A stretch of DNA of 64,000 bases from Syncephalis fuscata S228 (GCA_025786725.1 JAHLTZ010000013.1:62001-126000); one strand, 5' to 3'. Positions 781-64,000 are shown, counted from the first letter of the stretch. A program made the numbers and translations. Notes: generated by a model from the sequence alone, not told the origin.

Positions 781-1145
781 TAACATGTAGATCAAATCAT
801 GTGATCTATTCACATAAAGTGTGTGATCAAGTTGTTACTGGTCGAACAATTGCTTCGACTCCCACTTTTTGAGTTTCCAAAGTAAAATTTGTTCCAATCA
901 AAGTCATGTTGTTGTTATATGCAAATAGTTATGTTAATTCCTATTAAAATAAGTTAATAAATTGATTTAAACAAATAATGGAACATACTATTTGATTTTG
1001 TTGAGACATTTGAGGCCAATCATTGTTGCTGTTGGTCATGTATAGAAAGATTGATCGAATATTAATAGAAGCCATACAATTGTGATTTCACGTCGTTCCA
1101 CAGTTGTTGTTGTTGTTGCATTAATATATACATACTATGTACTAT
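781..1145. repeat. Dispersed AT-rich repeat, copy A
   Basis: The reverse complement of 851-1140 aligns by eye with 61412-61698 (ttggaacaaattttactttggaaactcaaaaagtgggagtc vs ttggaacgaattttgctttgaaaactttaaatgtgggagtc). 983-1075 is also a direct, diverged match to 58824-58918. Confidence 0.8.
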
Positions 1146-1212
1146 TTCATTTTAACTTTAAATTTATTAGCCATTTATTATGATTTATGCTTAAACTGAC
1201 TAAATTTAACAC

Positions 1213-2121
1213 CATTCAATCTATTGAATATGATGATGAGTGGTGAATGACATTAGTCATCAAAACACTGGTCATTGTAGATTTATTATCCAGTATGCAT
1301 ATATTCTATATTCACCTATATCATTCCCATTCTAGCACATACTATTATACATCATGCTATGATATATTAGACACGTTCTATTGTTTATATGCTCCAATAT
1401 ACTTTACTCATTCTCCTCATTGCGTTATATATGCTATAGCTTTAACACCATTTTATACTTTTTTACCGTATATTTATCATTCTATATAGCATTCTATACT
1501 CACTTTGCCTTCCTCTATCCAAAGCTATTTTTATTTTTGTTCTAGCACTATTATCAACAAATGTCGACTAATTCCACTCTTTAAGCATGCATATATACTC
1601 AATGACTTCAACATAGTTAATCGTCATTTCATACCGTATTTTTTATATTGTATATTGTTTTATTGTATAATAAATACGTACTATCTATTGCACTTGTTTT
1701 TTTTGTTATAGCACTGTTATTAATAAGGTTCGACTAATGTTGGTCATCTGCTCATGCATATATGTTCAATAACTTTAACGTTGCTATTCTCGTTTAATAT
1801 TGCATATTCATTACAATATTTATTATTTTATTATATATTGGCCATACGCTGTCTATAACCGTTGTCGGTATGGTTCCAGCTTTTTCATTAATAAAAATTG
1901 ACTTATTGCACTTAGTTTGTTTACTGAGTTATATTGATAGAACAAATAATATGAATATGAAATTAGCTATGGTTTTAATGTTAATCAAGCAAAATGACGG
2001 GCATATATAGTAATAACACATACTGTGATGCTATATGTGTACTAGATAATAAATCTACAATGATGAGTATTTGATGATTGATGTCACTCACCACCCATCA
2101 GCATGTTCAATAGATTGAATG
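1213..2121. mobile_element. Non-autonomous MITE-like element with ~90-bp imperfect terminal inverted repeats
   Basis: 1213-1303 (cattcaatctattgaatatgatgatgagtggtgaatgac...) is a diverged reverse complement of 2032-2121. No coding capacity, and no clear TSD seen. Confidence 0.6.
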
Positions 2122-2163
2122 TGCAGTTCAACTACGCGAATGTTATTAAAAATAATTATTTGA
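1386..2163 (+). repeat. Left arm of ~778-bp near-perfect inverted repeat
   Basis: Reverse complement of 4283-5060 with only a few substitutions. It gives identical 68-aa ORFs at 1505-1711(+) and 4735-4941(-). Confidence 0.95.
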
Positions 2164-2375
2164 GCATTAAATTACACTAAACTATTAAATAATTATTCAA
2201 TGTTTGTAAATTTTAATTAATTAATGATTAGTTAGTATGTACAAATATAATATTTGTATTATTATTATTATTATTAAATGCAATAAAATATATTGATTAT
2301 ATTGCTGTTAGTTAAAAGGTGCAAAGGTATGAACCTTTGCGCCTATTTATTTAGTAGCTGTGTGTTTGTGTTTGA

Positions 2376-2482
2376 TTGCTTGTATTTGGCTGCTTGTATT
2401 TGGTTGTTTGTATTTGGCTGCTTGTATTTGGCTGCTTGTGTTGTGTTGCTTGTATTTGGTAGCCTGTGCTGGTATTGTTTGG
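2376..2482 (+). repeat. ~14-bp tandem repeat (tgcttgtatttggc)
   Basis: Repeated ttgtatttgg[c/t]tg units seen directly. Confidence 0.85.
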
Positions 2483-2794
2483 TAATATCGGAATGGCGCT
2501 GTTATTATTTATAGCAGTTATGATTGTACATGTATTTCTAAAAAGAAATATAAATGTGTGTGAAGTATGGGCCGTAGTATACACAAGTATACACGGTTAA
2601 GTATACTTCACACGCAGCCTTTCTGCGTAAACGCATACTCGGACTGCTTAATATATCTTGTAAACTACGCTGTAGCCACCCTATGTACATAATAAACAAA
2701 GGGGACACAATGTAGCCACTTGCACTATCCATAGCAGATTGGCTATGATGTCTGCAGCCACCATAGCCATGGCTACTACAAACAGTGATAAACG

Positions 2795-3222
2795 GCTATC
2801 TAAAATCTAAAATAGCTCAAAGTTAGTATGTTAGTATATAGTTACTTAAATTTTGAAATTGTCGTTGTTGTGTGTTAGCGGCCGGTTATCTAAATCTAAA
2901 TATTATAAGTTAGTGTGTTAGCATATAGTTACCTAAAATTTAAAGTTAATGCTGTTTAACGTGTTAGCGGCCGGCTACCTAAAAATCCAAAATATAGCAA
3001 ATTAGTACGTTAATAGCGGCCATTCAAAATTTAAATATAACAAATTAGTATGCTAATAATAAGCATCCAAAATTTAAATGATAAATTAATATGCTAATAA
3101 TGAGCATCCAAAATTTAAATATAACAAATTAGTATGTTAGTAGCGACCATCTAGAATCTAAATATAACAAATTAGTAGGTTAGTAGCGACCATCTGAAAT
3201 CTAAGTCTAATAAATTAGTATT
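2795..3222 (+). repeat. Degenerate ~43-bp minisatellite array
   Basis: About 10 copies of aaatYtaaatataacaaattagtatgYtaRtagcgRccatc-like units. Confidence 0.8.
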
Positions 3223-3637
3223 TTTTTAGTCTTGGGTAGCCGGCCGCTAACACAATAAAATAAGCTTGTAATCTTAATTTCTGTAATCTAAACTCTATGC
3301 TAATCAATGCAGGTTAGTACGTTAGTAGCTGACTGTCTGTAGGTTAAATAATTAAACTATATTAGTAGCTTGATAAGCGGCCGCCCGTAAATCTAAAGCA
3401 TTATGTGTTAAGCTAGTATCCATGGTATAATCTATAATAGCAATAAAGTCAATAATTAGTTGTTTAAAGTACGAATTTATTGAATATAAAAGTTAGTGAC
3501 AAATTTAATTTAGTTACTTACTATTGCACTGATCGTGCACTATAGGGAAATACCAGTAAATAAATTATTTAAACGTAGAAAAAGAAAAGAGGAGGAGAGC
3601 AATGTAGAGTTAAAGGAAAGAAGAAAAAAGAAAGAGT

Positions 3638-3933
3638 TTGGCAGCATATGGTCAACACAGTCATTGTGCTGGCGGCTGTCCGCAAGGCAGAGCGATACCA
3701 CTAGCACTGCTATACGGTTGTATAGCAGGGTGATATGCAAAGCCAGGAGGGACATACTCATACCAGCCGTACAACAATGGTGACTATAGCAGAAAGAGAA
3801 CAGTATATGCTTGGTAGCATATATCCATCACAGTTAGCATACTAGCAGCTGCCCACAAGATAAAACGACACCGCTAGCACTGCTGTACGGCGCCATACAG
3901 CAGGGCGGTATGTAGTACCGAGACGAGGCATAC
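3638..3933. repeat. Two diverged ~120-bp GC-richer modules (period ~176 bp), each with a hairpin
   Basis: ctagcactgctatacggttgtatagcagggtgatatg (~3701) vs ctagcactgctgtacggcgccatacagcagggcggtatg (~3874). Confidence 0.7.
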
Positions 3934-4282
3934 TTATACTAATAAAACTAACCACGACATATACTAGACAAAGCATATACCAAACTTATAGAAGCGAGTG
4001 TGAAGTGAGGAAGAGTGGCTAATGGATAGGCGCTGTCAAGTGTGGAGGAAGAGAAAGAGGAAGGTGTGACGTAAATCGTGTGCTATGTGATCGGTAGACT
4101 GTTTTTATAGTGTGGGTGTAAGTGCTGATGTAATATGAATAAACAATCATTATAATTGGCGCCAATTGATTTGTTTGACAGCATTCGTGCCGTCAAACTA
4201 AACGTTTATTTTATTGAACATGGGACCGGGTAATCATTTTTATTAAATCATCAAATCATTAGATTATATTATGATTTGGAGG

Positions 4283-5060
4283 TCAAATAATTATTTTTAA
4301 TAACATTCGCGTAGTTGAACTGCACATTCAATCTATTGAACATGCTGATGGGTGGTGAGTGACATCAATCATCAAATACTCATCATTGTAGATTTATTAT
4401 CTAGTACACATATAGCATCACAATATGTGTTATTACTATATATGCCCGTCATTTTGCTTGATTAACATTAAAACCATAGCTAATTTCATATTCATATTAT
4501 TTGTTCTATCAATATAACTCAGTAAACAAACTAAGTGCAATAAGTCAATTTTTATTAATGAAAAAGCTGGAACCATACCGACAACGGTTATAGACAGCGT
4601 ATGGCCAATATATAATAAAATAATAAATATTGTAATGAATATGCAATATTAAACGAGAATAGCAACGTTAAAGTTATTGAACATATATGCATGAGCAGAT
4701 GACCAACATTAGTCGAACCTTATTAATAACAGTGCTATAACAAAAAAAACAAGTGCAATAGATAGTACGTATTTATTATACAATAAAACAATATACAATA
4801 TAAAAAATACGGTATGAAATGACGATTAACTATGTTGAAGTCATTGAGTATATATGCATGCTTAAAGAGTGGAATTAGTCGACATTTGTTGATAATAGTG
4901 CTAGAACAAAAATAAAAATAGCTTTGGATAGAGGAAGGCAAAGTGAGTATAGAATGCTATATAGAATGATAAATATACGGTAAGAAAGTATAAAATGGTG
5001 CTAAAGCTATAGCGTATATAACGCAATGAGGAGAATGAGTAAAGTATATTGGAGCATATA
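4283..5060 (-). repeat. Right arm of ~778-bp inverted repeat (truncated inverted copy of the TIR element)
   Basis: Reverse complement of 1386-2163. Confidence 0.95.
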
Positions 5061-5253: not shown

Positions 5254-5726
5254 TTATGAAGCACTGCGGAGTTTTGGTATAGGCTTGGGCTCCCTTAAGT
5301 TCTCGTTAGATGCAACGCATATTCCTGGCGCGTCAGTTGCTTCTTTATATCCACTGCACTTCATGCCATCGTCACATACGTATTTATAGTCATCGCATGG
5401 CTTGCCCAAATAAGCTACCTCATGACATATGCCTATCATTCTATCTATAATTTTGAATCTGGGTGGTTGTCCACATCGTAGTCGTATATTGCAGTTGGTG
5501 TTGGTAACATCATCCATACCACAAGGCTTAAGAAAGCCCAGCTGATTATCAGCTACACCGAACGAAAACGGGCCAAACTCAACATTTACCGCTACAATAA
5601 ATCTATCTGTTAGTTTTCATATTTTTAATAGACTATCGATAACCTACAGCCTAGCTTAAATGTCTTTGTGGCACTGCATAGTGGAATTGCCGTCAAAAGC
5701 GCAGCAAGCAATACGTAACGTTTCAT
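5254..5726 (-). CDS. Small secreted cysteine-rich protein (2 exons)
   Basis: Signal peptide MKRYVLLAALLTAIPLCSA. A GT-AG intron (5592-5647) joins in frame to an exon with 8 Cys (…KPCGMDD…CNIRLRC…ICH…PCDD…VCDDGMKC…GICV). Confidence 0.8.
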
Positions 5727-12598: not shown

Positions 12599-13033
12599 CT
12601 ATTCCTCATCACCATCTGAATCATAGTCTTCTGGTTTAGGTCTAGTAATACCATATTCGACAATACAGGTGTACTTGTTAATACTAATTTTGCCCGCAAT
12701 GTTGATTTTTTTCATAAAGTACTTGGACAGACCAATGGCGCATCTGACGGTTACCTCTTTGCCTGCCAAGCGGCCGTATTTATGACACTTGAATCGTTTA
12801 GTAATCTCCCAGCTGTTTGTACTCAAAAATAGATGTTCTTTGTTAACGGAATATACTGATCCGGCAGGCGAATCTGCATTTAAAGCATGTTGGCAGTTTG
12901 GTGCATCAAACGGAGCTTTTGGATCGTAAAGTTTACCAAAGTCCGTCGGCGTAGCTTCAGCAACCGAGATAATCGACACAGCACCCATCCAGAGCTGGAA
13001 AGCAATAGTCATCAAGCTGTTTGGCGCAACCAT
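12599..13033 (-). CDS. Small secreted protein of unknown function (144 aa, 4 Cys)
   Basis: Single-exon ORF with a hydrophobic leader ending AEA|TP, an acidic tail, and an upstream TATA-like tatataaa near 13160. Confidence 0.65.
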   Translation of the reverse strand: MVAPNSLMTIAFQLWMGAVSIISVAEATPTDFGKLYDPKAPFDAPNCQHALNADSPAGSVYSVNKEHLFLSTNSWEITKRFKCHKYGRLAGKEVTVRCAIGLSKYFMKKINIAGKISINKYTCIVEYGITRPKPEDYDSDGDEE

Positions 13034-14475
13034 GGTGTACGTTTAGAATGTTAATCGTTAGAGGTGAGAAAAGCGTGAAGCAGGGGTTAATTCGTAAAAA
13101 TTAGAGTAGTTTGCGGATGATGATATAAAATAGCAATAAACACAGAATTCATTGCGGTTTATATAGCTAGCGGAGCATTAATGAACAAAAAAATTACACT
13201 GGTATGTATAGGATTACAAACTGGCTGAATACAGATAGCAACACTACATTACCTATTCGGTCCTTCCATGAAGTTAGGTGTAACAATTACAGAGTTTTAG
13301 CGTTTGGATTATGGCTCGTTTTGTTAGTACACGTGCCAGACAAATAAATTATATTTCGCATTAAGCAATATCATGTGTTGCTTATCAGCTGATAGCTGCA
13401 CGTATGAGTTTTAAATTAATACCAGTAATTGCTATACTTTTTAAGCTAATTAAAACAAAAAGCAAAACCCATCAATTGCATTACTAGTACAATGCGGTAA
13501 TAGCCATTGGCCTATAATAGACCATATCTTTGGTTATACAAGCAATGGACATCACCGGCACTAAGACAGCTGTATTTTATTTGAACGATGGTCATGGCAA
13601 CAGGCTTGTTACCATTTAACATGCTCGTGTGTGTACAAAACCGAAATTACTGTAATAGCACGATATTTTTCATAGCCTATATACCTCGTGTACTGAGTTT
13701 TAAAACTGGTGCATTTGACAGGTTGGTATCAAGCTAGATAACCAATTTAGAAAGCAAATAATGTGCTTTAAGCATTAGCAGTTTGGAAAATAGAGAACAA
13801 CGCAACTGCGAATAACAAGTAAGTTTCAAGCGAGTAGACATGTACAAGCTGGCTACTAAGAATTTTAAATTACATAGTTGGCCTTAAAACAGATTGTGTA
13901 TATACGCGGCTATTGCGTAAATGATTAAAAATAGTTAATTGAATTGTACTGATAAAATACAAGCTAGCTAAAAAGATGTTTATAAATTTATTTGCACTAT
14001 TACATGTGACGATTACAAACACCGAACGAACACGTGGAGCATTAGGGAACCGCCCGTAAATACTTTCATCCTAGTAAATGAAATTTAGTTTCAGTTGCCA
14101 TATCGATGCCCAAGTTCACAATTAACGCCAGTAAATTCATATAGTAATATAGCATTAAAAATTACACACAAACAGTAAATTGGTTTTTTAACATTAAACA
14201 ATAACATAATTTATATAATCACTAATGTATAATTTTGATAAAACATAGGGGAAATAGGCATAATAAATGATACGAAATATAGCAGTAATAATGAACACTT
14301 GAGCATTACTGGCATTAAAGATGTATATACGTGCTGTTGTAATTGAATAGGTGTATGTCTATCCATTGCACGTTAAAAATATCTATCTCGTTAACCATAG
14401 CACGTTAAGAGATACAATCACATTGCTGTGTTGGCCATGATTCATGATAGTAACCAGATATTTACATATCAGCCA

Positions 14476-17939: not shown

Positions 17940-19199
17940 TTAGACAGTGCTTGGTGGAAGGGCAGCATCGAAGCCAGTTGGTGTATTAGCTGTTGATACT
18001 CCAGTGGCGGTATTGCTAGTTTGGGATTTATCAGCACTGGCAGACGTGCTGGCACCAGTATTAACATTGCTACTAAGATTAAGATTAATATTAGTATTGT
18101 TAGTATGACCGGTGCTAGCAGTAGTGTTGGCAGTATTGGCAGTGTTGGCAGTGTTGGCAGTATTGGCAGTATTGGCAGTGTTGGCAGTGTTGGCATTTGG
18201 AATGGTGGAAGAGCTGGTAGAAAAGCTGGAGTTAGGTAGGCTATTTTGTGTACTCAATGTCGAGTCCAAGTCAGTGCTACTATCTCCATCAAATGAATTA
18301 TCGAATGAATTACCAAAGGTATTATCCGTAGTAAAAGGCTTAGTATTAACACTAGTGGCACTATCAGTGCTAGTATTCATACCATTGTTTGAGCCGTTGG
18401 ATAGATTCATATCATTGTTTGAACCATTAGATAGATTCATACCATTGCTTGAACCATTAGATAGATTCATACCATTGTTTGAACCATTAGATAGATTCAT
18501 ACCATTGTTTGAACCATTAGATAGATTCATACCATTGTTTGAACCATTACTCATACTAGTATCAGCTTTCGTAGCCACACCAGAGTTTGTATTGGAACTT
18601 GTGCCAGTAGTCATATCAGTGGCCAGATTCATATTATTGTTTGAACCAGTAAACGAATTCATACCATTGTTTGAGCCGTTGGATAGATTCATATCATTGT
18701 TTGAACCATTAGATAAATTCATACCATTGCTTGAACCATTGGACAAAGTTATACCATTGTTTGAACCAGTATTAATACTAGTATCTGTACTAGCACCAAT
18801 ACCAGTAACCACACCATTACGTATAACATTCTTCATACCATTCTCTGTATTAATGGCAGAATTGGTAGGCGTAACAGTATTGCCATTTGTAGTAGAGCCG
18901 TTATTTAGCGTACCGGAGGTGGAGCCAAAATCAGCGTTATTAATTCCCAATGAGTTGTCAGTAGCAGGACCAGGTAAATTGGAAGAAGACGCCATAACGG
19001 CACCATTGGTGGCCAATGAAGAACTGATTTTGTTCAATGAATTTTCATTGGTAAAGCCAAAGTTGGTGGGGCTAGCAGTAGTAGTGGAAGCTTGAGTCGA
19101 AGTGTTTTCAGTGGTTGTTTGAGGAATTGGAGAAGCGTTAGTCAAAGCCAAAGCGGCCAAAACCAAGATAGCCGTTAGAGGATAAGCGTGCATTTTCAT
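17940..19199 (-). CDS. Secreted Asn/Ser/Thr-rich repetitive protein
   Basis: Signal peptide MKMHAYPLTAILVLAALALTNA|SPIP. 10-aa repeats MNLSNGSNNG (30 bp) and (NTA)n repeats (9 bp). Confidence 0.85.
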   Translation of the reverse strand: MKMHAYPLTAILVLAALALTNASPIPQTTTENTSTQASTTTASPTNFGFTNENSLNKISSSLATNGAVMASSSNLPGPATDNSLGINNADFGSTSGTLNNGSTTNGNTVTPTNSAINTENGMKNVIRNGVVTGIGASTDTSINTGSNNGITLSNGSSNGMNLSNGSNNDMNLSNGSNNGMNSFTGSNNNMNLATDMTTGTSSNTNSGVATKADTSMSNGSNNGMNLSNGSNNGMNLSNGSNNGMNLSNGSSNGMNLSNGSNNDMNLSNGSNNGMNTSTDSATSVNTKPFTTDNTFGNSFDNSFDGDSSTDLDSTLSTQNSLPNSSFSTSSSTIPNANTANTANTANTANTANTANTANTTASTGHTNNTNINLNLSSNVNTGASTSASADKSQTSNTATGVSTANTPTGFDAALPPSTV

Positions 19200-39243: not shown

Positions 39244-39857
39244 CAGTCCAATACATACTTTTAATAAAACATCAAGCTTATTTTATTTATTTTATTTGTA
39301 CGTATGGCTCAATAAGTAAGTTAATCAAAGTCTATTGGCAATTGAACTAGGAAGAAATGGGCAACAGTTATGAATAGTGCATGACTATTACAAAATAAAT
39401 AATATGGAATAGAACAAATATACAATGGAAAGTGTGTGAATAGTTATGTTGAACTTACGATGCATATATTGGTATTTCAAATTATTATACATAGAAAAGG
39501 TAATTTGCTGTAATTATAGCTATCAAAAAACGAAATATTAAACTTCTACACTGGTCATGTTTACTAATAACAAATAATCCAATTTTGCAATGTTTATGAA
39601 TATTGTGCGTCAATAGTAAAATTTTATGCATTGTAAATTTAACACTACTAGTTATATATTTTCCATTTTATATTTGTTCTATTCCATATTATTTATTTTG
39701 TAATAGTCATGCACTATTCATAACTGTTGCCCATTTCTTCCTAGTTCAATTGCCAATAGACTTTGATTAGCTTACTTATTGAGCCATACGTACAAATAAA
39801 ATAAATAAAATAAGTAGACATAAGCTTAATGCTTTATTAAAAATATGTATTGGACTG
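39244..39857. mobile_element. Foldback/MITE-like element with ~190-bp near-perfect inverted arms
   Basis: 39244-39431 is the reverse complement of 39660-39857 (one small indel), with a ~230-bp spacer. Confidence 0.8.
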
Positions 39858-44773: not shown

Positions 44774-45760
44774 CTAAGACGTAGCTTGGGTAGATGGTAG
44801 GCCAGCGTTAAATTGATCGGCCGGTAGACCAGTAGTAGCTTGATTAGCAGTAGCTGAATCAGTTGGTGTTTCATCACTATTGGCTTGATTATTGATATTT
44901 ATATTAGCGGCAGGCTTATCAGCAGCAGGCTTATCAGCAGCAGGTGGAGCAGCAGGTGTATCAGCAGCAGGTGGAGCAGCAGGTGTATCAGCAGCAGGTG
45001 GAGCAGCAGGTGGAGCAGCAGCAGGTGAAGCAGCAGCAGGTGGATTAGTAGTAGCTGGAGCAGATACTGTGCCACCATTGTTAGCTTGATTATTGATATT
45101 TAGATTAAGTGCTATGCCAGCAGGACTAGGTTGACTAGCTGGGGAACTACTAGTATCTTTTTTTTGTGAAGCCGCCCTTGCATTGGCTTCCATCTCAGCC
45201 TTCTTTAGTTCCAGCTCATTGGCCACGGTCATTCCACTCAAAGCAAGTGTGCCAGCGCCTAGGATGGTATCAGTGCCCAAACGTATCATATCTAATCTAT
45301 GCTGTCGCTTGTTCGCTTTATCGAGAGCGTCTGTAGCAAGACGACCAGGTGCGCTGCCAATACTGCCTAAATTAGGTTTGCTTATTGGCGGAGTGATTGG
45401 CAGTCCTCTTAAGCTCTCTGGTTTAAACGGGATAGGCGGTGGAACAGAACTTTTGGTTAAAGGAATCTTACTGCCACTCAAGCTAACTGGTGGTGCAATA
45501 GGACTTCTAGCTGGAGTTGAAATGCCTGATGCACCAGGAAATTTAGCAGGTGCAGGGGTTGGAGGGATGCTTGGTGCACTTGGCACGCCCGATGGCTTTT
45601 TAGATTTCTAATAAATAATATTAGTACTATTATTAAATTAAACATTAGTTAAAATACTCACAAATGGACCGAACCATGGTGCGGCATTGACTGAAACTGC
45701 ATTCGTAGACAATACGGCTAAAAGCAAGGCGGCGCTAAGAATCGTTGTGCTGGCACGCAT
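44774..45760 (-). CDS. Secreted Pro/Ala-rich protein (2 exons)
   Basis: Signal peptide MRASTTILSAALLLAVLSTNAVSVNA, an intron at ~45609-45661, and AADTPAAPP repeats. Confidence 0.75.
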
Positions 45761-47686: not shown

Positions 47687-48624
47687 TCAAATGCTTAGCT
47701 TATTTCGGTTGACTTCAAAATCCTTCGGAAGCGGTGCTGTGAATTGATTCTTACGCAAACCGGTAGTTTTGGCAATCCATGATACAAAATAATCTATACG
47801 CGCATAAAATCCAACATTACCCTTTATACCGCAAACTGATGAATCCAATCCTAGTGAATTTTGACCAAAACTGGTGACAGCAGCCTGTAGCCATAATGTA
47901 GCAGCCTTTACACCAGTAGCGCCGTTAGAATCCGCCACTTCAACCAGTAAAGGGCCACCAGAATCTCCGCCACATGTATCTTTTCCAAATACATTTGCAG
48001 TGCATAGTAGCTGATATCGATAAAGTGAATAGCTTGGACTAGCTTTGGCGCAAAATGCTGGACTTCCATTAGATATATCAACGCGGTTTAGTAATGATGC
48101 AATTTTTTTATTTTGATTCATGCCCCACCCGATAGCTGTAAACTTTTGTTTTCCTGATAATTTGGATTCATCTCTTATCAGTTTAATGGGTTGGATGGTA
48201 TCAGTAAATTGAAGTAAATTTTTGAGCTCCAATAAAGCAATGTCGTTAATAAACTCGGTCCAGTTATATTTGGGATGTGCGTAGATATTTTTTGGAACAA
48301 TTGGAGTGTAGGTTATGTTTGAGTCTTGTCCAATGTTGATGCGATATGTTGATGGTCTTCCAAAACTACTTTTCCTGCTTCTTCTGATTTTTCAGCATCT
48401 ACCGCACAATGCGCGGCTGTTAAAATCCAACGACTGCTGATAATAGAGCCTGTACATACGCTGCCAGCGCCAAATAGGATGCGTACGGCAAACGGAAACT
48501 GAGTGACTGTGGTGCTGTCACCTCCAGCAATCTTGAGTACTGGATTGAATGGGATAGCTACTGCACCGTGCAACGTAGCAATTGCGGCAACAACCAGCGC
48601 AGTCAATAAGTTCAGTTTGACCAT
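47687..48624 (-). CDS. Secreted trypsin-like serine protease (S1), with an apparent 1-nt frameshift at ~48355
   Basis: Signal peptide, K|IAGG activation site, LTAAHC, NDIALL, GKDTCGGDSGGPL. Confidence 0.9.
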
Positions 48625-50360
48625 GTTCCAGATGCTTGTAGTGCTCATAAACAAAATGCTTGGATATTGCAAAATACAAGGAATACAAATGCTATAACTA
48701 ATAAGTAGTGTTTCAAAGTTATAAATACACGCTGTAGATTTAGAAAATTGATTGCCGTTTAAATAGCAATATTACAATCAAGTCTTTGTAAATCCAGCGC
48801 TGGCTTGTTTCTTTGTTTTTAAATCTACAAATAAAGCCGACACAGCATGCCTTATTTCAGCACAAACACTTAGATAACTATAATGACAGTATTTCTATTT
48901 GCTCACAGTAAATGCTAAGTAACAGGAGATTTTATAATAAATATATTTGATCTACGCATTAAGCAATAGCGCTGATCGTCTGCGCTTAATGTAGATTTTA
49001 GTAGTTTAAACTCAAAGCAGAAACAGCAACAAAGAAATTACTCGGCCTTTGAATTATTTGCTCTTATACATTGTTATGTTGTAATGTTATTTATAGAGCA
49101 ACAAAGACTTGCTTTCTATAGATTGGCATACATTTATAAAGCGATGAATTGTTGTAGATTCAGGGGAAATGACGTAGTAATAGGGCACAGTATGCAAATT
49201 TTGTAGACAAAAATAAAAATATTGAATACAGCAAATCATACACAATGGTTTATGCAAATCGAGGATACATCTAGCTATATACTAGCAATGCTAAGAATAA
49301 AACAAAGCCTTAAATAGTATTTTTACAGCTTAAGTTGCTGCCATGATTAAACATATACAAATGCACTCTGAAACAGCCTTCCGTCACTGGTTTAACCACG
49401 GTTTCGAATGATGTTCTGTACGCATCGTATGCATAACTACGCAGTTGCACTAAGGCTTGATTAAATAGCGACAAACATTAACAACATAAATACCAATGCT
49501 ATATTCGGGATATGCATTTATTTACGTATTTTTGTTGAGTCCATATTAGACGCGTATTTTAAATATAAAACTATTGTATATTTTATAAAAACTAATGACC
49601 GATCAAACCTTTAATTCAAATCACAAAAATCAATGACTGTGCCGAATGATTTATTACTGGAAATGCACAATAAATTACGCCGCAAAAACTGCTTATTGTA
49701 CAATCAATTTTCAGCCAAGTTTACCTAACTGATATTTAGACTAGTATTGATTGCACGGAATGTCCTATAATCTGCTAAATTTTAGTTTAAGCAGGTAAAA
49801 ATTTATGTATTAACTAAGTTTAGTAATTAAACTAGTCAATAACAATGTCAAATACAAAAACAGTATTATGAACCAAACGAAAAAGACTATAGATAATGTG
49901 TTATAGCAGAGAATGAACAGCAAGTAATGTTGGAATAGATTAATATTATAAAAATAATCGACACTTACTAATTAATATGGTGTAATTGTAATAAAATAAT
50001 TATTAAATAAACTGGCCACAAGTTGAATTAATGGTTCAAACAAAGTGGGAATCAATATAAAGTTTTTTATTACTGTTTATACAAATCTGTTTTCATCATG
50101 TACATGACTATACTAAAAGTTGGTGCAATTAGATTCTATTATATAGCTAACTACTATTTGCATTACTAAATTCTAAATAAAATATTTGCAATAATAAATC
50201 CTTTATTTATATTTTTGATGTTTAAACATAAGATAAGAAACTAAACACTTATTTAACATTATTTAAAACTTAGATTCTGTAAAGCAGTACAAACTAACAA
50301 AGAAGTAGATGTAGTCTATTGAGATTCTCAAATAATAAAAGTAAATTTATTCCATAACAA

Positions 50361-57856: not shown

Positions 57857-58555
57857 ATGAATCTCATTACAGCCGATACACGTATCAAGTAATATGCTGA
57901 TAATATATATAATTATAGCTATTAGTCAATTCTAATGTATATATCTCTGTATATGTATATGTATTTGTTTATTATTATTTTATAGAGTTAGTTCGGTGCT
58001 TAACCGCGATACAACCAATTACGGTAAACAGAATTTGACAGATGGCAGTGAAGAGACATGCTGGAATTCAGACCAAGTAAGTAGTGTAGCTATTAGCCTA
58101 TTGGACTAGTATAAAGCTTCGTAAACCAAGTGATAACTATGGCTATTGTGGTATATTTAGCAATGTCCTCAGTATATTGCTCTTGATTTTGGTCGGTCCG
58201 TTAAGCCTGATACCATTTATTTAATGTTCCAAGGTGGATTTGTAGGACGTGTTGCTCGTATATTAGTCGCATCGGTCATATCAACTGATACAACAACAAC
58301 AACGATAGGTCCTTATACCGATTTAACCTCCATCTATCCTGAAGATATTAACGCGTTACAAATATCCTTTTTTACTCTGTAAACATTTATTAGCTTTAAA
58401 TAGCGCTTTATTATTCTTAACTTGTACTTTACAGCTTTAAACTACCAGTACAAGATGCGCCAATACAGCGCATGAAAATTATATTCGATGAAAGTAGCGA
58501 TCACTATGGCCGTATTACTATTTATCGATTGGAGATTACAGGTGCCCATGCTTAA
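57857..58555 (+). CDS. NR2C2AP: Nuclear receptor 2C2-associated protein (TRA16)-like galactose-binding-fold protein, 4 exons
   Basis: Motifs VSSVLNRD…YGKQNLTDGSEETCWNSDQ, FQGGFVG, YPEDINALQ, SSDHYGRITIYRLEI. Confidence 0.88.
58362..58432 (+). other. U12-type AT-AC intron in the NR2C2AP-like gene
   Basis: 5' end ATATCCTTT, branch TTCTTAAC about 11 nt before the terminal AC. Removal restores the frame NALQ|SFKLP. Confidence 0.9.
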
Positions 58556-60776
58556 ATTGTAATAAACAATAAAAATGGCCACTGGTATTGGCAGTCAATT
58601 AGTTGGACATTTACTTTGCATCTTCCAAAGCAGTAAACTTTTTTACGCAATTCATTGTGATGATTTGAATAGTTGACGAGTTGCTTGGATTAAATTGTGT
58701 TTAAATGATTATTTACAATAAATATCAACATAATGTAATAACATTATCATTCTATAAAATTGATTAAATGTTACAAAAAAGTGTATCAGCAACTGCTATT
58801 TTAAACATTTTAATAAACAACGTAACATACTATTTTTATTTTATTAAAACATTTGAGGTTGATCATTGTTGTTGTTAGCCATGTGTGGAAAGATTGATAG
58901 AATATTAATAGAAGCCATGCTTGGTATCAACTTGATAGACGCAGTTTATTTGTTGGCCATTAATAAAGTAAATGGCCTTCACCATATTCAATACTGATAG
59001 GTTGAGTGTTTTCATTAGGAATATTTTGGGACGACAGTTGTAACCAGATAATACGGCATACCGTTGAGGTTACTTGAACAGGCGTTGGTGTAAATAAGAG
59101 AAATAAAGACTAGGGCTAAAATAATGTTTTTTATTAATGTTCAAATACACATGCTATTTATATTGTTATATTTGGCATTATCGTATAATATATTACTGAA
59201 TAAAACAACAAGATAGCAATAGGAAAAGACGGTGGAATGAGTAAATAAAAATGTGGGAGTTAAAGTAAAAATGATTTGATCATGTAAATATTACGCACTC
59301 AATCCAATATTTTGTTTTATTTTAATATATAGCTATACAACTTTTATTAATGGTCAATAAATAAATTAATCTGTCTTTCTATTGTTGCAATGATGCATGA
59401 TATTAGTTGCTTACTCTGATAAATAATTAAATTGAGCCTTATAATGGTTGGCTTAATTGGTGGTTGTATAAATGTAAGTATATAAGAGGTTACAGTGTGG
59501 CTGTAAATATATATTTGCACAAACAACCAGAACTATAAAGTATAGTGACAATAATCAGTTATTTGACTACTAAACTTGGTAATTCAATTCTATTTACATC
59601 TCTCTGTTTTCTGTGCGTTATTTCGGTTTAACGTTGCTGCTGTTCTGGTCGCACCAGCAATAGCCAACTTTTGATAAATGCAGCCCAGCTTAGCATAGCT
59701 ATAATGATTTGCTATAGATTAAGCCAGTAAGCCTTTGAGCTGCCAATTGTTTTTCCATTGGTTTCTGCTTTGGCTTGTACTTCTATATTCCATTTTGCTT
59801 AACTTGTCAGAAGTGGTTTCAAAAATGTAACCAGCACTTAAGCTTTGGATGCTTACCAATTGATATGTAATCTATCGATATTATGCATTTGAATCGCTGG
59901 TATTTGGTTAGAGCTTTCTATTGTGTCTAGTCTAGTGTCTTCATATTGTATTGCGTATAATTTAGTCAATGCAATTTAGTTTACAGCTGAAAACTAATGA
60001 CAAAAATGACTTGTTGGAATGTTCCATTGCTCAAAATGCCGTGATGCATCATGTTACAAACAGTACTTATTGTATAGTCGGTTTCAGGTAATTTGGATTA
60101 GCCTCTGTTTGAATGATGGTAGTTGCACAGCATGTAACATAATATGCCTAGATGTAATGCGTTTGTGAATTCGAAACAATTGCTACTCCATAACAATGGG
60201 CATAGTGTCGAATGAAATACATGTGTGTACCAATCAATACACTTTATAATTTGAGGAATGACGACTAATTTATATGTATCATTAAAAACTTGTATAAAAA
60301 TACTAGTTTAATACATTAAACTTGTTTTTTGTATCAGTGCTGTGTGTTATTATGTATAAGTGCAAATATTAAAAACCGAATTATTCAATGAAAGCAAGAA
60401 CAAAGACATCATCATTATCATTTATAAAGCCAAGTAATATGCTTATTTTTACCAAATAGGTAGATTGTGTAATAGAAAATACAGATTAATATATCTATTT
60501 TTATTGAATATGTACTGGATTATGAACACTGTTACAGTACTTGTGTAAATGACTAGCAGATTGAAGTAAAGACTGGGCAGGTTTAAATTAAGACTGGATA
60601 GGTTGAAACCAAGCCTGAGCAGGTTGAAACCAAGGCTGGAAAGCATGCTATTACGCCATGAATCTATTAGTACACGCGCACCTCAAAGTATTATTTGGAT
60701 TGTCTTATTGGTCCATATTACACATCAATGGTATATATCGTATACTACAGTATACTAGCATCCCAGCATAACCGTA

Positions 60777-60789
60777 AGTATAAATAGCC
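60777..60789 (+). promoter_or_regulatory. TATA-box-like element upstream of peptide gene 1
   Basis: gtataaatagccc, conserved in the duplicate at ~63174 and ~130 nt upstream of the ATG. Confidence 0.55.
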
Positions 60790-60909
60790 CACAAAATATA
60801 CACAACCAACTGCGATATCATCAGCACATTCTACTTCTTGTTATACACGTATTACCAACCACACTCTACGATCTCTTTTATTTGTTTGTCTTAACAAATC
60901 AATATCATC

Positions 60910-61113
60910 ATGAAGCTTTCTATTGCCATTGTTTGCACCGTCGTTGTGGCTCTGGTAGCCACTACAGTCATGGTGGATGCTAAACCAGCTTTAGCTCGTC
61001 AATATTCTAGGCAGTGCCTTGATTGTCGCGAAAACTGCGACGAGCGTTACGGTGGCCGCATCCGCAGCGCTGCTTGTCGGAAATTTAGCTGTGCCAAAGA
61101 CTGTCGTGAATAA
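60910..61113 (+). CDS. Secreted Cys-rich peptide precursor (6 Cys)
   Basis: Signal MKLSIAIVCTVVVALVATTVMVDA; mature region CxxCxxxC…CxxxxCxxxC. Confidence 0.85.
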   Translation: MKLSIAIVCTVVVALVATTVMVDAKPALARQYSRQCLDCRENCDERYGGRIRSAACRKFSCAKDCRE

Positions 61114-61407
61114 TTACTTTTAAAACATCAGCATTGGCAGTGCAATCAAACCACTATTCCAATACACTTTAGATATATATTTGGTAAAAGCAAAACTATT
61201 TGACAGCTACGCCGTTCATTCTATTTATATATCAAGTTTTGGTCAATGCTCCAGTTCACGCACTCTTTAATCAATAAAATTGTTACTCTATCAACAAGTT
61301 TACAATTACTTGCCCCTCTTCAATTGTGCAGGCTTATAGTAATAAATAAATGCTAATTTATGTTATTGTCGCTATAAAGTATTCAAAATATTATAATTTA
61401 ATATTTA

Positions 61408-61720
61408 ATGGTACATACATGTATATACTAATGCAACAACAATGAATGCGGGATGACATAGAATCGCAATCATATGGCTTATATTGATATTCAATCAATC
61501 TTTCTACGCATACCTAACAACAGCAATAATAATCGGCTTCAAATATTTCAAAGCAATCAAATGGTATGTTACATTATTTATTTAAATCAATTTATTAATA
61601 ATATTTTAATAGAAATCAATATAATTGTATTGTGCATCAGTGCAACTTCAATTGGAACGAATTTTGCTTTGAAAACTTTAAATGTGGGAGTCAAAGTAAA
61701 AATGATTTGATCATGTAAAT
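61408..61720. repeat. Dispersed repeat copy B at the junction of the duplicated units
   Basis: Inverted, diverged match to 781-1145. Confidence 0.8.
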
Positions 61721-63779
61721 ATTACGCGCTCAATCCAATATTTTGTTTTATTTTAATATATAGCTATACAACTTTTATTAATGGTCAATAAATAAAATTA
61801 ATCTGTCTTTCTATTGTTGCAATAATGTATAATATTAGCTGCTTATTTTAATAAGTAATTAGATTAAGCCTTATAATAGTTGGCTTAGTTGATGATCGTG
61901 TACATGTAAGTATTTAAGAAGTTACAGTGTGATTGGGAATATTTATTCATACAAACAACCAGAATTATAAATTGTAGTGCCAATAACAAGTTATTTAATT
62001 ACTAAACTCGTTAATTCAATTTTACTTACATCTCTCTGTTTTCTGTGCGTTATCTTAGTTTAATGTTGCTGCTGTTCTGGTCGCATCAGCAACAGCCAAC
62101 TTTTGATAAATGCAGTCCAGCTTAGCATAGGTACAATGATTTGTTATAGGTCAAACCAGTAAGCCTTTGAGCTGCCAATTGTTTTTTCATTGGTTTCTGC
62201 TTTGGCTTGTCCTTCTATATTCCATTTTGTTTAACTTGTTAGAAGTGGTTTCAAAAATGTAACCAGCACTTAGGCCTTAGATGATTATCAGCTGATGTAC
62301 AATCCATAACCATCATGTACTCGAAATTACTGGTAATTGGTTAAAACTTTCTATTGTGTCTAGTCTAGTGTCTTCATATTGTATTGCGTGTAATTTAGTT
62401 AATGAAATTTAGTTTACAGTTGAAAGACTGATAAAAATGATTTGTTAAAATATTCCATTGCTTAGAATGCCATGATGCATCATCCTACAAATAGTACTTA
62501 TTGTATAGTCGGTTTCAGGTGGTTTGAATTAGTTGCCATCTGAATGATAGCAGTTGCACATGTGGCATGATATGCCTGGATGTGATGTATTTGTGAATTT
62601 GAAACAATGATTGCCCCATAACAATGGGCATAGTGTCAAATGAAATATATGCATGTACCAATCAACACACTTTATAATTTAAAAAATTATACTTGATTTA
62701 TGTATGGCAGTAAAAACCTGTATAAAATATCAATTTGATACATTAAGCTTGCTTTTGTATCAGTGTTGTGTGTTATTCTGTATGCAACAGATATTGAGGG
62801 CAAAGTCGGTAGAAATGGCAAAGACATCATTATCATTTTACAAAGCCAAACAATATACTTGCTTTTACCAAATAGTTAGGCCGTGTAACAAAAAATACAG
62901 ACGAATATGCCAATTTTTATTGCATATGTACTAGGTTATGAACATTTTACACCATTCGTGCAAATGGCTAGCATATTGGAGTAAAGACCGGGCAGGTTAA
63001 AAGCAAGACTGAGTAGATTGAAATTAAGCCTAGGCAGCATGCTATCACACCCTGAAACCATTGATGCATGCACACCTCAAACCATTATTTGGATTGCTTT
63101 ATTGGTTCATATTGCACATCAATAGTGTACCTCATATACTACAGCATACTAGTGTATCTCAGTATAACCGTAAGTATAAATAGCCCACGAAATACACACA
63201 ACCAACTGCAATAGCATCATTACACTCTACTTCTTGCTATACACGCACTACTATACACTTTACACCAACCATACTCTATTGTCTGCTCTGTTTGTTTGTC
63301 TTAACAAATTAATATCAACATGAAGCTTTCTATTGCCGTCATTTGCACTGTCGTTGTGGCGCTTGTGGCCGTTACAACCATGGCGGGTGCTAATCCAGCT
63401 TTAGTTCGTCGCGCTCTAAAAGGGGAAAGTTGTCCTGATTGCATAAACAGATGCAAGTGGGGCATTTTTCGCACTAAGGAGTGGTGTGCTAGCGAGAAGG
63501 GATGGTGCTTTATTCCATGTCAATGTCCTACTTGCCCGTAATCGATGGTTCCAAGACATCTGCATTGGTAGTGCAATCAAGCCACTATTCCAATACACTT
63601 TAGGTATATATTCGGTGAAAAGCAAGACCATTTGACAACTACACCGTCCAGTCTATTTATATATCAAGTTTTGGCCAATGCTCCGGTTTATCTAGTCTTT
63701 AATCAATGGAATCACTATTTTAGCAACATATTTGCATCTAGTTGCTTCTATTCAACTTTGTAAGCTTATAATAATAAAT
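61680..63779 (+). repeat. Tandem segmental duplication unit 2
   Basis: Colinear match to 59249-61347. Confidence 0.92.
63320..63541 (+). CDS. Secreted Cys-rich peptide precursor (8 Cys)
   Basis: Signal MKLSIAVICTVVVALVAVTTMAGA, dibasic RR, mature region CxxCxxxC…C…CxxxCxCxxC. Confidence 0.85.
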   Translation: MKLSIAVICTVVVALVAVTTMAGANPALVRRALKGESCPDCINRCKWGIFRTKEWCASEKGWCFIPCQCPTCP

Positions 63780-64000
63780 CTATGGTTTCATCTTAGCTAT
63801 ATACAATCAAATTGCTATACCTATAACCATGTTCTATTTGCATTCAATAATGACAATTATCAATTAAATAATTAAATTAATAACAAAATGTGTATAGTTA
63901 TATCGCCTAAGCTATAGGCATAGATTGGTATGGATAGTAGCAAAGCTATTATTATCATATAGCCAAGTAATAGTATGCTGAAATTAGAATAAATACGCCT

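What the first reader, a model, noticed from the sequence alone, without database searches (positions are those of the whole stretch)
60910..63541. Duplicated peptide precursors with conserved leader and flanks but hypervariable mature toxin-like regions
Seen: about 2 kb of non-coding flank, the TATA box, the signal peptide and the 3'UTR stay alignable. The mature regions (QCLDCRENCDERYGGRIRSAACRKFSCAKDCRE vs SCPDCINRCKWGIFRTKEWCASEKGWCFIPCQCPTCP) share little beyond CxxCxxxC and differ in Cys number (6 vs 8). The coding payload has thus diverged faster than the adjacent non-coding DNA. Established: this pattern characterises conotoxins, defensins and effectors, and paired CxxxC motifs recall helical-hairpin peptides. 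Inference: an undescribed antimicrobial or toxin peptide family under diversifying selection or cassette exchange.
Basis: partly seen in the sequence, partly recalled or inferred. Interest (0 to 1): 0.75.

Follow-up and report, generated by a model that had tools for sequence, protein, structure and literature searches.

The report
Mycoparasite shared-leader hypervariable peptide library
Two neighbouring genes, likely from a fungus-parasitising fungus (Syncephalis), belong to an apparently undescribed family of over 20 small genes that keep the same export leader but carry mostly unrelated short peptides, likely a recombining library of secreted weapons against host fungi or competing microbes.

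Summary
Two single-ORF genes (60910-61113, 63320-63541) sit in a tandem duplication with about 2.43 kb spacing. Flanks and leader are 81-85% identical, but the two payload DNAs are no more alike than codon shuffles. All 22 database relatives are unnamed Syncephalis proteins (21 from S. fuscata, on 16 contigs). They share a 31-residue leader, with a dibasic Kex2-type site in 20 of 24 sequences, while most payloads are unrelated. Point mutation alone would need dN/dS of about 20-40, leader kinship does not track payload kinship, and flank identity is patchy. This favours recombination: flank homogenisation or payload swapping. A probable RNA run of a relative covers the gene bodies about 1000-fold deeper than the flanks. 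Expression of these two exact genes, their fold and their activity are not shown. The closest precedent is the Hessian fly SSSGP effector family. I found no fungal report in seven literature searches. Verdict: a real, apparently undescribed family; a known architecture in a new setting.

The parts
59249..60909 (+). Unit 1 upstream non-coding flank, duplicated with the gene; no codon periodicity, no Rfam match
60779..60786 (+). TATA-like box TATAAATA of gene 1, 131 nt before ATG, identical in both copies
60910..60981 (+). Gene 1 predicted signal peptide, 24 aa, ending V-D-A (judged from hydropathy and family conservation; no SignalP run)
60982..60999 (+). Gene 1 short pro-piece ending ALAR, a non-dibasic, AFP-like putative Kex2 site (family consensus ends LVRR)
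   Evidence: motif rules from passages of PMC8528282 and PMC13525654
61000..61113 (+). Gene 1 payload, 37 aa, six Cys (C-2-C-3-C-12-C-4-C-3-C), net charge +3, plus stop; low-confidence helix-loop-helix model
61114..61347 (+). Unit 1 3' non-coding region, 81% like unit 2, with AATAAA at 61273 and 61341
61395..61699 (-). About 300-nt dispersed AT-rich repeat between the two units (other copies at 850-1158 and, partial, 58807-58918); overlaps the start of unit 2
   Evidence: deep in DNA runs
61680..63319 (+). Unit 2 upstream non-coding flank; first 114 nt 98% identical to unit 1, the rest about 77-93%
63175..63182 (+). TATA-like box of gene 2
63320..63391 (+). Gene 2 predicted signal peptide, 24 aa
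63392..63412 (+). Gene 2 seven-residue pro-piece ending LVRR (dibasic and LxxR Kex2-type site)
63413..63541 (+). Gene 2 payload, 42 aa, eight Cys (six-Cys ladder plus C-terminal C-x-C-x-x-C extension), net charge +2, plus stop
63542..63779 (+). Unit 2 3' non-coding region with AATAAA at 63773

Best explanation
These two genes are members of a Syncephalis family of small precursor genes that share one leader but carry mostly unrelated payload peptides, which are likely secreted and likely act against the host fungus or competing microbes, with recombination in the shared flanks probably keeping the frame alike while payloads diverge or are swapped. Steps: (1, shown) a unit of at least 2.1 kb (promoter flank, leader, payload, 3' flank) is duplicated here, and many diverged copies exist in DNA runs of a relative. 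(2, shown) The leader is conserved across 22 relatives and the payloads are not. (3, inferred) The signal peptide is removed after residue 24 and a Kex2-like protease cuts after the pro-piece. (4, predicted, low confidence) The payloads here fold as disulfide-stapled helical hairpins (C1-C6, C2-C5, C3-C4). (5, inferred) Ectopic gene conversion or double crossover in the flanks homogenises the frame and reassorts old, diverged payloads, while diversifying selection acts on the payload. (6, inferred from lifestyle, cationic charge and analogy) The peptides act on other organisms.
For: Payload DNA is at shuffle level while flanks and leader are 81-85% identical. Differences are transition-rich in the flank (193:47) and leader (12:3) but random-like in the payload (25:43). 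With neutral distance 0.17-0.23, point mutation alone reaches the observed 65 differences in 29 non-Cys codons in at most 5% of 600 runs even at omega 40, and never at omega 20 or below. Flank divergence is patchy (chi2 38.4, df 15, P 0.0008; one block with 2 differences in 100). Signal peptides average 0.71 identity (211 pairs), but only 7 of 253 payload pairs beat all 200 shuffles. Leader identity does not track payload similarity (Mantel rho 0.04, p 0.32, 19 sequences): P0001/P0002 have 0.90 leader identity and unrelated payloads, P0001/P0010 have 0.77 and related payloads. In run X3, 5 of the 15 listed joints run from the leader end (60987-61000 or 63411) to the stop or 3' flank with other letters between. 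X3 depth is 8e4-1.4e5 over gene bins against 4-332 over upstream-flank bins, while DNA runs stay at or below 205 everywhere (X3's RNA status is a guess and contig depth is a poor measure). The leader is also present in S. pseudoplumigaleata (P0020). Syncephalis is a mycoparasite (passage of PMC13188720) whose genomes appear poor in secondary-metabolite genes (passage of PMC10386755).
Against: No activity, peptide or target is shown. Mussel MgCRP-I peptides have the same architecture, yet the two tested showed no antimicrobial, cytotoxic or insecticidal activity (passages of PMC4558851). The direct synonymous signal in the payload is weak: 5 of 9 same-residue codons differ against 4 of 20 in the leader (Fisher p 0.09); 3 of 6 Cys codons differ. 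The simulation has no indels, and misaligned codons also look random. The Mantel test rests on 31 residues and has low power. Some clear payload relatives do keep similar leaders (P0002/P0003, 0.90). No DNA of the S. fuscata members could be obtained, so some 'unrelated' payloads may be frameshifted, truncated or mis-called (P0015 looks frameshifted relative to P0006; P0005 and P0006 are marked partial). Gene 1 lacks the dibasic site. The X runs hold only 6-8% of the window's words, so they show a relative's family, not these two genes. The window's genus is inferred from homologues only.
Confidence: 0.55

Rival explanations
1. Plain duplication followed by very strong diversifying selection on point mutations and indels in the payload (the conotoxin model), with no special recombination.
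For: The two window payloads and P0001/P0010 keep a six-Cys ladder, so they are homologous. The excess of synonymous change is not significant against the leader (p 0.09). Hessian fly SSSGP pairs reach dN/dS 18.8 (PMC2955719, part 2). Divergence stops at the processing site, where leader constraint ends.
Against: It needs omega of about 20-40 over all non-Cys codons. It does not easily give Cys-free payloads of 19-112 residues behind 80-90% identical leaders. Flank identity is patchy. Cys codons are not preserved (3 of 6 differ), unlike MgCRP-I.
Confidence: 0.25
2. The family is real and secreted but is not a weapon: the peptides serve recognition or signalling (mating, self/non-self, host sensing) or coat spores and hyphae.
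For: Hypervariable payloads also typify recognition ligands (general knowledge, recalled). Net charges are low (+3, +2) and range from -4 to +7 in the family. Very deep X3 coverage could reflect a structural or developmental product. No match to any toxin or antimicrobial family.
Against: Payloads of many unrelated types behind one leader fit a multi-target arsenal better than a single receptor-ligand system (inference). The organism is an obligate parasite.
Confidence: 0.2
3. The unit is cargo of a non-autonomous mobile element; copies spread by transposition and many payloads are neutral captured or decaying sequence.
For: The whole unit, including 1.6 kb of flank, is multicopy in DNA runs (416 and 365 contigs laid, mostly under 99% alike). 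Members lie on 16 contigs. A dispersed repeat abuts the units, partly in inverted orientation (58807-58918 vs 61474-61587). Transitions are enriched at CpG (33/64 vs 160/528).
Against: The inverted match is partial (115 nt, 77%) and does not bound the duplicated unit. No transposase ORF is evident near the units. Both window payloads are open, keep an even number of Cys in a shared ladder, and their alternative frames have stops. Transposition alone does not explain why the payload diverges faster than neutral flank.
Confidence: 0.1

Closest known systems
Hessian fly SSSGP effector gene families (PMC2955719; parts 1-3 of 5 read)
   Same: Promoter, UTRs and signal peptide conserved while the mature region is unalignable; tandem copies; parasite; explained there by positive selection plus concerted homogenisation of flanks.
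   Different: Insect salivary proteins, mostly with introns, clustered in short regions. Here: a fungus, single-ORF genes, a 7-residue pro-piece with a Kex2-type site, members on 16 contigs, 1.6 kb of shared upstream DNA. No sequence relationship was found or expected.
Conotoxin superfamilies and mussel MgCRP-I (passages of PMC4494072 and PMC4558851)
   Same: Conserved pre-pro region, dibasic site, hypervariable mature peptide with a six-Cys framework in a subset of members.
   Different: MgCRP-I has six invariant Cys, preserved Cys codons and four exons. Here Cys number runs from 0 to 8, Cys codons are not preserved (3 of 6 differ) and there is no intron between leader and payload in the two window genes.
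Plant alpha-hairpinins (passages of PMC7191063)
   Same: CxxxC motifs on two predicted helices; small cationic peptides.
   Different: Defined by four Cys (C-X3-C-Xn-C-X3-C, X not Cys) and often multi-module or vicilin precursors. The window peptides have six or eight Cys and one payload per precursor.
Fungal K2PP effectors and the AFP/BP antifungal proteins (passages of PMC8528282; abstract and passages of PMC13525654)
   Same: Signal peptide plus pro-piece ending in RR or LxxR; small, Cys-rich, basic, secreted.
   Different: K2PP is a processing class, not a family with a shared leader. AFP/BP/NFAP2 are reported from Ascomycetes and Basidiomycetes with conserved mature parts and a gamma-core; there is no Pfam or PDB-sequence match here, and here the mature part is the variable one.

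Membership tests
SSSGP-type 'inverse conservation' gene family (pattern) | Non-coding flanks and signal peptide more conserved than the mature coding region | tested here: met
   0.81-0.85 vs shuffle-level payload
SSSGP-type 'inverse conservation' gene family (pattern) | Multigene family with tandem members | tested here: met
   Tandem pair here; 21 S. fuscata proteins, of which P0010 and P0016 have consecutive accessions on a contig of the same length
SSSGP-type 'inverse conservation' gene family (pattern) | dN/dS above 1 in moderately diverged pairs | tested here: inconclusive
   The only DNA pair is saturated (pS 0.73-0.77, pN 0.62-0.75); no DNA for other members
SSSGP-type 'inverse conservation' gene family (pattern) | Expression in the tissue that contacts the host | not testable with these tools
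   Only contigs of a probable RNA run of a relative; no condition or tissue data
Alpha-hairpinins | Four-Cys motif C-X3-C-Xn-C-X3-C with no other Cys | tested here: not met
   Six and eight Cys, one lying between the two CxxxC motifs (definition from PMC7191063)
Alpha-hairpinins | Helix-loop-helix fold | tested here: inconclusive
   Gene 1 model has helices 34-50 and 55-66 at pLDDT 51-61; gene 2 model has one helix, pLDDT 49.5
K2PP (Kex2-processed pro-domain) proteins | KR/RR or LxxR motif after the signal peptide | tested here: met
   20 of 24 sequences have a dibasic site, including gene 2; gene 1 has only ALAR
K2PP (Kex2-processed pro-domain) proteins | Actual cleavage by Kex2 | not testable with these tools
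   Needs peptidomics or in vitro cleavage
AFP/BP/NFAP2 fungal antifungal proteins | Sequence or profile match of the mature part | tested here: not met
   0 Pfam families for both genes at E up to 10 and for 16 of 16 members at E up to 0.1; 0 PDB sequence matches
Conotoxin / MgCRP-I type | Invariant Cys framework with preserved Cys codons | tested here: not met
   0-8 Cys across the family; 3 of 6 aligned Cys codons differ (small sample)
Antimicrobial or toxic peptide (function) | Activity against fungi, bacteria or host cells | not testable with these tools
   No assay

The most novel reading that the evidence does not exclude
Syncephalis runs a recombinational peptide-display system: one strongly expressed, intron-free secretion cassette is copied around the genome, and unrelated payloads (six-Cys helical hairpins, other Cys frames, linear peptides) are captured or swapped in at the Kex2 site by recombination in the flanks. 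This would give an obligate mycoparasite that is poor in secondary-metabolite genes a ribosomal arsenal of new anti-Mucorales peptides.
Probability: 0.25. Interest if true: 0.85.

Novelty: new variant of a known kind. Interest (0 to 1): 0.62.

Why it matters
How Zoopagales mycoparasites subdue their fungal hosts is little known at the molecular level, and a review notes that their genomes appear poor in secondary-metabolite genes for unclear reasons (PMC10386755 passage). A leader-defined family of more than 20 short, synthesisable peptides gives direct candidates. The leader is a search handle for members that gene callers missed: neither window peptide is in the protein collection. The peptides may include new antifungal scaffolds against Mucorales. 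The family also offers a compact fungal genome in which to test whether inverse conservation comes from selection, flank conversion or payload swapping, a question left open for SSSGPs and conotoxins (PMC2955719; PMC4494072 passage).

Tried and rejected
No whole genome is held for the window, so no within-genome census or flank trees were possible. Exact look-ups found none of 10 window ORF translations, several of which were not real gene models, so whether the S. fuscata proteins are same-genome paralogues is open. Metagenome scans were empty: 98 pattern matches, none confirmed; 0 matches for a 22-nt 3'-flank pattern. No listed run is on record as RNA. Whether these two exact payloads are transcribed was not resolved. 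Pfam, PDB sequences and Rfam over 58000-64000 gave no match. ESM Atlas best scores were 0.75-0.76 (gallidermin, scorpion short toxin), below what shuffled proteins often reach, so they were rejected. Fold searches with the low-confidence gene 1 model gave no Foldseek match and only generic helical hits, best Z 4.9 at rmsd 5.0; these are uninformative, and the gene 2 model was not searched. A hidden gene in the shared upstream flank was rejected: no frame of 40 codons or more is clearly kept in both copies, and substitutions show no codon periodicity (30/25/20 in the longest block). No third leader copy in the window (tblastn). The inverted repeat pieces near the units do not bound them. Earlier-findings look-ups by sequence and by place were empty. 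Supplements of the papers were not opened; the protein tables of PMC13188720 could bear on novelty.

Full report
Observation. The window holds two ATG-started, uninterrupted ORFs, 60910-61113 (67 aa) and 63320-63541 (73 aa), in a tandem duplication with about 2.43 kb spacing. blastn aligns 59249-61000 with 61680-63410 (81.8%) and 61122-61347 with 63553-63779 (81.5%), leaving the payloads unaligned. Over non-gap columns the upstream flank is 0.851 identical, the leader 0.833, the 3' flank 0.808 and the payload 0.602 (0.471 with gaps). The lowest of 1566 flank windows of 120 columns is 0.650. The payload DNA alignment is no better than codon shuffles: 1469 of 2000 score as well. Similarity stops at the first arginine codon of the processing site and resumes about 10 nt after the stop. 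The flank shows no codon periodicity and no Rfam match. TATAAATA and AATAAA sit where a promoter and polyA signal would.

Organism and family. Searches with each gene returned 3 of 3 candidates, all Syncephalis fuscata hypothetical proteins. A profile found 15 of 197 candidates, and an exhaustive search of 1.84 billion representatives gave 18 hits at E up to 0.001. With one cluster mate there are 22 distinct relatives: 21 from S. fuscata, on contigs of 16 different lengths, and one from S. pseudoplumigaleata. No other genus appeared. The window is therefore inferred to be from Syncephalis (Zoopagomycota, Piptocephalidaceae), a mycoparasite (passages of PMC13188720, and PMC6899921). Neither window peptide is in the collection. 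All members share a 24-25-residue signal peptide (mean identity 0.71 over 211 equal-length pairs) and a 7-residue pro-piece; 20 of 24 sequences have a dibasic site there. Gene 2 has LVRR. Gene 1 has ALAR|Q, which fits the relaxed Kex2 rule and resembles LDAR/LEAR of the AFP and BP families (passages of PMC8528282, and PMC13525654). Cleavage is inferred. Payloads are 19-112 residues with 0-8 cysteines. Among 23 sequences (P0015 dropped as an apparent frameshift), only 7 of 253 payload pairs beat all 200 shuffles, and two of those are weak. The window payloads themselves are not significantly alike as proteins (56 of 200 shuffles score as well), but they share a six-Cys ladder with P0001 and P0010, and P0016 aligns to it more loosely. 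That spacing suits a three-disulfide helical hairpin (inference). AlphaFold gave gene 1 a helix-loop-helix at mean pLDDT 58.7 and gene 2 a poor model at 49.5. No Pfam, PDB-sequence, atlas or fold match was informative.

Copies and expression. Three runs hold 6-8% of the region's words, so they come from a relative or are incomplete. Laid at 80% likeness, DNA runs X1 and X2 put 416 and 365 contigs on 58500-64000, mostly under 99% alike and covering the upstream flank, so the whole unit is multicopy there. X3, guessed to be RNA, has summed depth 137,347 at 60892-61075 and 82,504-131,411 at 63284-63651, against 4-332 in upstream-flank bins; the DNA runs never exceed 205. Five of the 15 listed joints (27 more not shown) are X3 contigs that run from the leader end to the stop or 3' flank with other letters between, as expected for further members with different payloads. 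One loose end, read by eye, begins another CxxC payload like that of P0001. Contig depth is a poor measure of expression, so this is a hint that the family is strongly transcribed in a relative. It does not show that these two genes are.

Mechanism of divergence. Flank and leader differences are mostly transitions (193:47 and 12:3); payload differences are not (25:43). Only 3 of 29 aligned non-Cys residues are identical, with 65 nucleotide differences. In a codon simulation with neutral distance 0.17 or 0.23, 65 differences were never reached at omega 20 or below in 600 runs, and were reached in 1-5% at omega 40; amino-acid identity alone could be matched from omega about 10. The simulation has no indels, and misalignment also looks random. 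Flank divergence is uneven (16 blocks of 100, 2 to 23 differences, P 0.0008), as expected from conversion tracts of different age. Among 19 sequences (P0012, P0015, P0019, P0020 and P0022 dropped for offset, frameshift or redundancy), leader identity does not track payload similarity (rho 0.04, p 0.32), and the five CxxC-type members do not have unusually similar leaders (18% of 11,628 subsets reach their mean). Against this reading: the direct synonymous test is weak (5 of 9 vs 4 of 20, p 0.09), leaders are short, and some related payloads keep similar leaders. I therefore favour recombination in the shared flanks, either homogenising the frame around old payloads or swapping payloads, acting together with diversifying selection. 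Selection alone remains a serious rival.

Function. Not shown. A parasite family with a secretion leader, cationic disulfide-rich payloads (+3 and +2) and many unrelated payload types most likely acts on other organisms: the host fungus or microbes competing for it. A review notes that Syncephalis and Piptocephalis genomes appear poor in secondary-metabolite genes (passage of PMC10386755), which makes a ribosomal arsenal plausible. A caution: two mussel MgCRP-I peptides of the same architecture were inactive in antimicrobial, cytotoxic and insect tests (passages of PMC4558851). Signalling or surface roles remain open.

Comparison and novelty. The architecture is known. Hessian fly SSSGP genes show conserved promoter, UTRs and signal peptide around unalignable mature regions, explained by positive selection plus concerted homogenisation (PMC2955719, parts 1-3 of 5 read). 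Conotoxins and MgCRP-I are similar, and for conotoxins recombination and hypermutation were proposed without solid evidence (passages of PMC4494072). The peptides fail the four-Cys definition of alpha-hairpinins (passages of PMC7191063) and match no known fungal antifungal family (abstract and passages of PMC13525654, which do not mention Syncephalis). Seven searches aimed at a fungal or Syncephalis report listed none; I saw only listings and abstract starts for most hits, the library lacks most subscription papers, and supplements were not opened. One earlier scan note (e1-2518847) describes a similar shared-leader pattern in an archaeon; it is unrelated in sequence as far as known and was not tested.

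Verdict. A real and apparently undescribed Syncephalis family of leader-defined, hypervariable secreted peptide precursors: a new variant of a known kind, interest 0.62. The boldest reading not excluded is a recombinational peptide-display cassette that supplies new antifungal peptides (probability 0.25, interest 0.85).

Noticed in passing
window 1386-5060: A 3.7-kb foldback-like element with 778-794-nt terminal inverted repeats, 99% complementary, enclosing 14-nt and 43-nt tandem arrays and no ORF of 120 aa or more; probably a young non-autonomous DNA transposon.
   Followed up: partly
window 850-1158, 58807-58918, 61395-61699: A dispersed AT-rich repeat of about 300 nt in three copies (76-83% alike), deep in DNA runs; one copy separates the two peptide units.
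   Followed up: partly
window 59249-60909 vs 61680-63319: Transitions are enriched at CpG (33 of 64 vs 160 of 528 other C/G sites), hinting at cytosine methylation of repeated DNA in this fungus.
   Followed up: partly
window 39277-39814: Inverted repeat with 190-nt arms, 94% complementary, 158 nt apart; MITE-like.
   Followed up: no
window 17940-19199 (-): Predicted secreted Asn/Ser/Thr-rich protein of about 420 aa with 10-residue repeats; the exact sequence is not in the collection.
   Followed up: partly
window 44774-45607 (-): Pro/Ala-rich ORF with PAADK/PAADT repeats behind a hydrophobic segment; possible surface or secreted protein.
   Followed up: no
window 47687-48771 (-): Secreted trypsin-like serine protease (TAAHC and GDSGGP motifs, recognised by eye) spread over two reading frames, so an intron or a frameshift.
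   Followed up: no
window 5254-5616 (-) and 12599-13042 (-): Two small orphan ORFs, the first Cys-rich (weak IGFBP match, E 0.44), the second with a signal-like N-terminus; possible further effectors.
   Followed up: partly
P0010 and P0015 (S. fuscata): P0010 has CC where the family has RR; P0015 appears to read the P0006-type payload in another frame (by eye, no DNA available).
   Followed up: no
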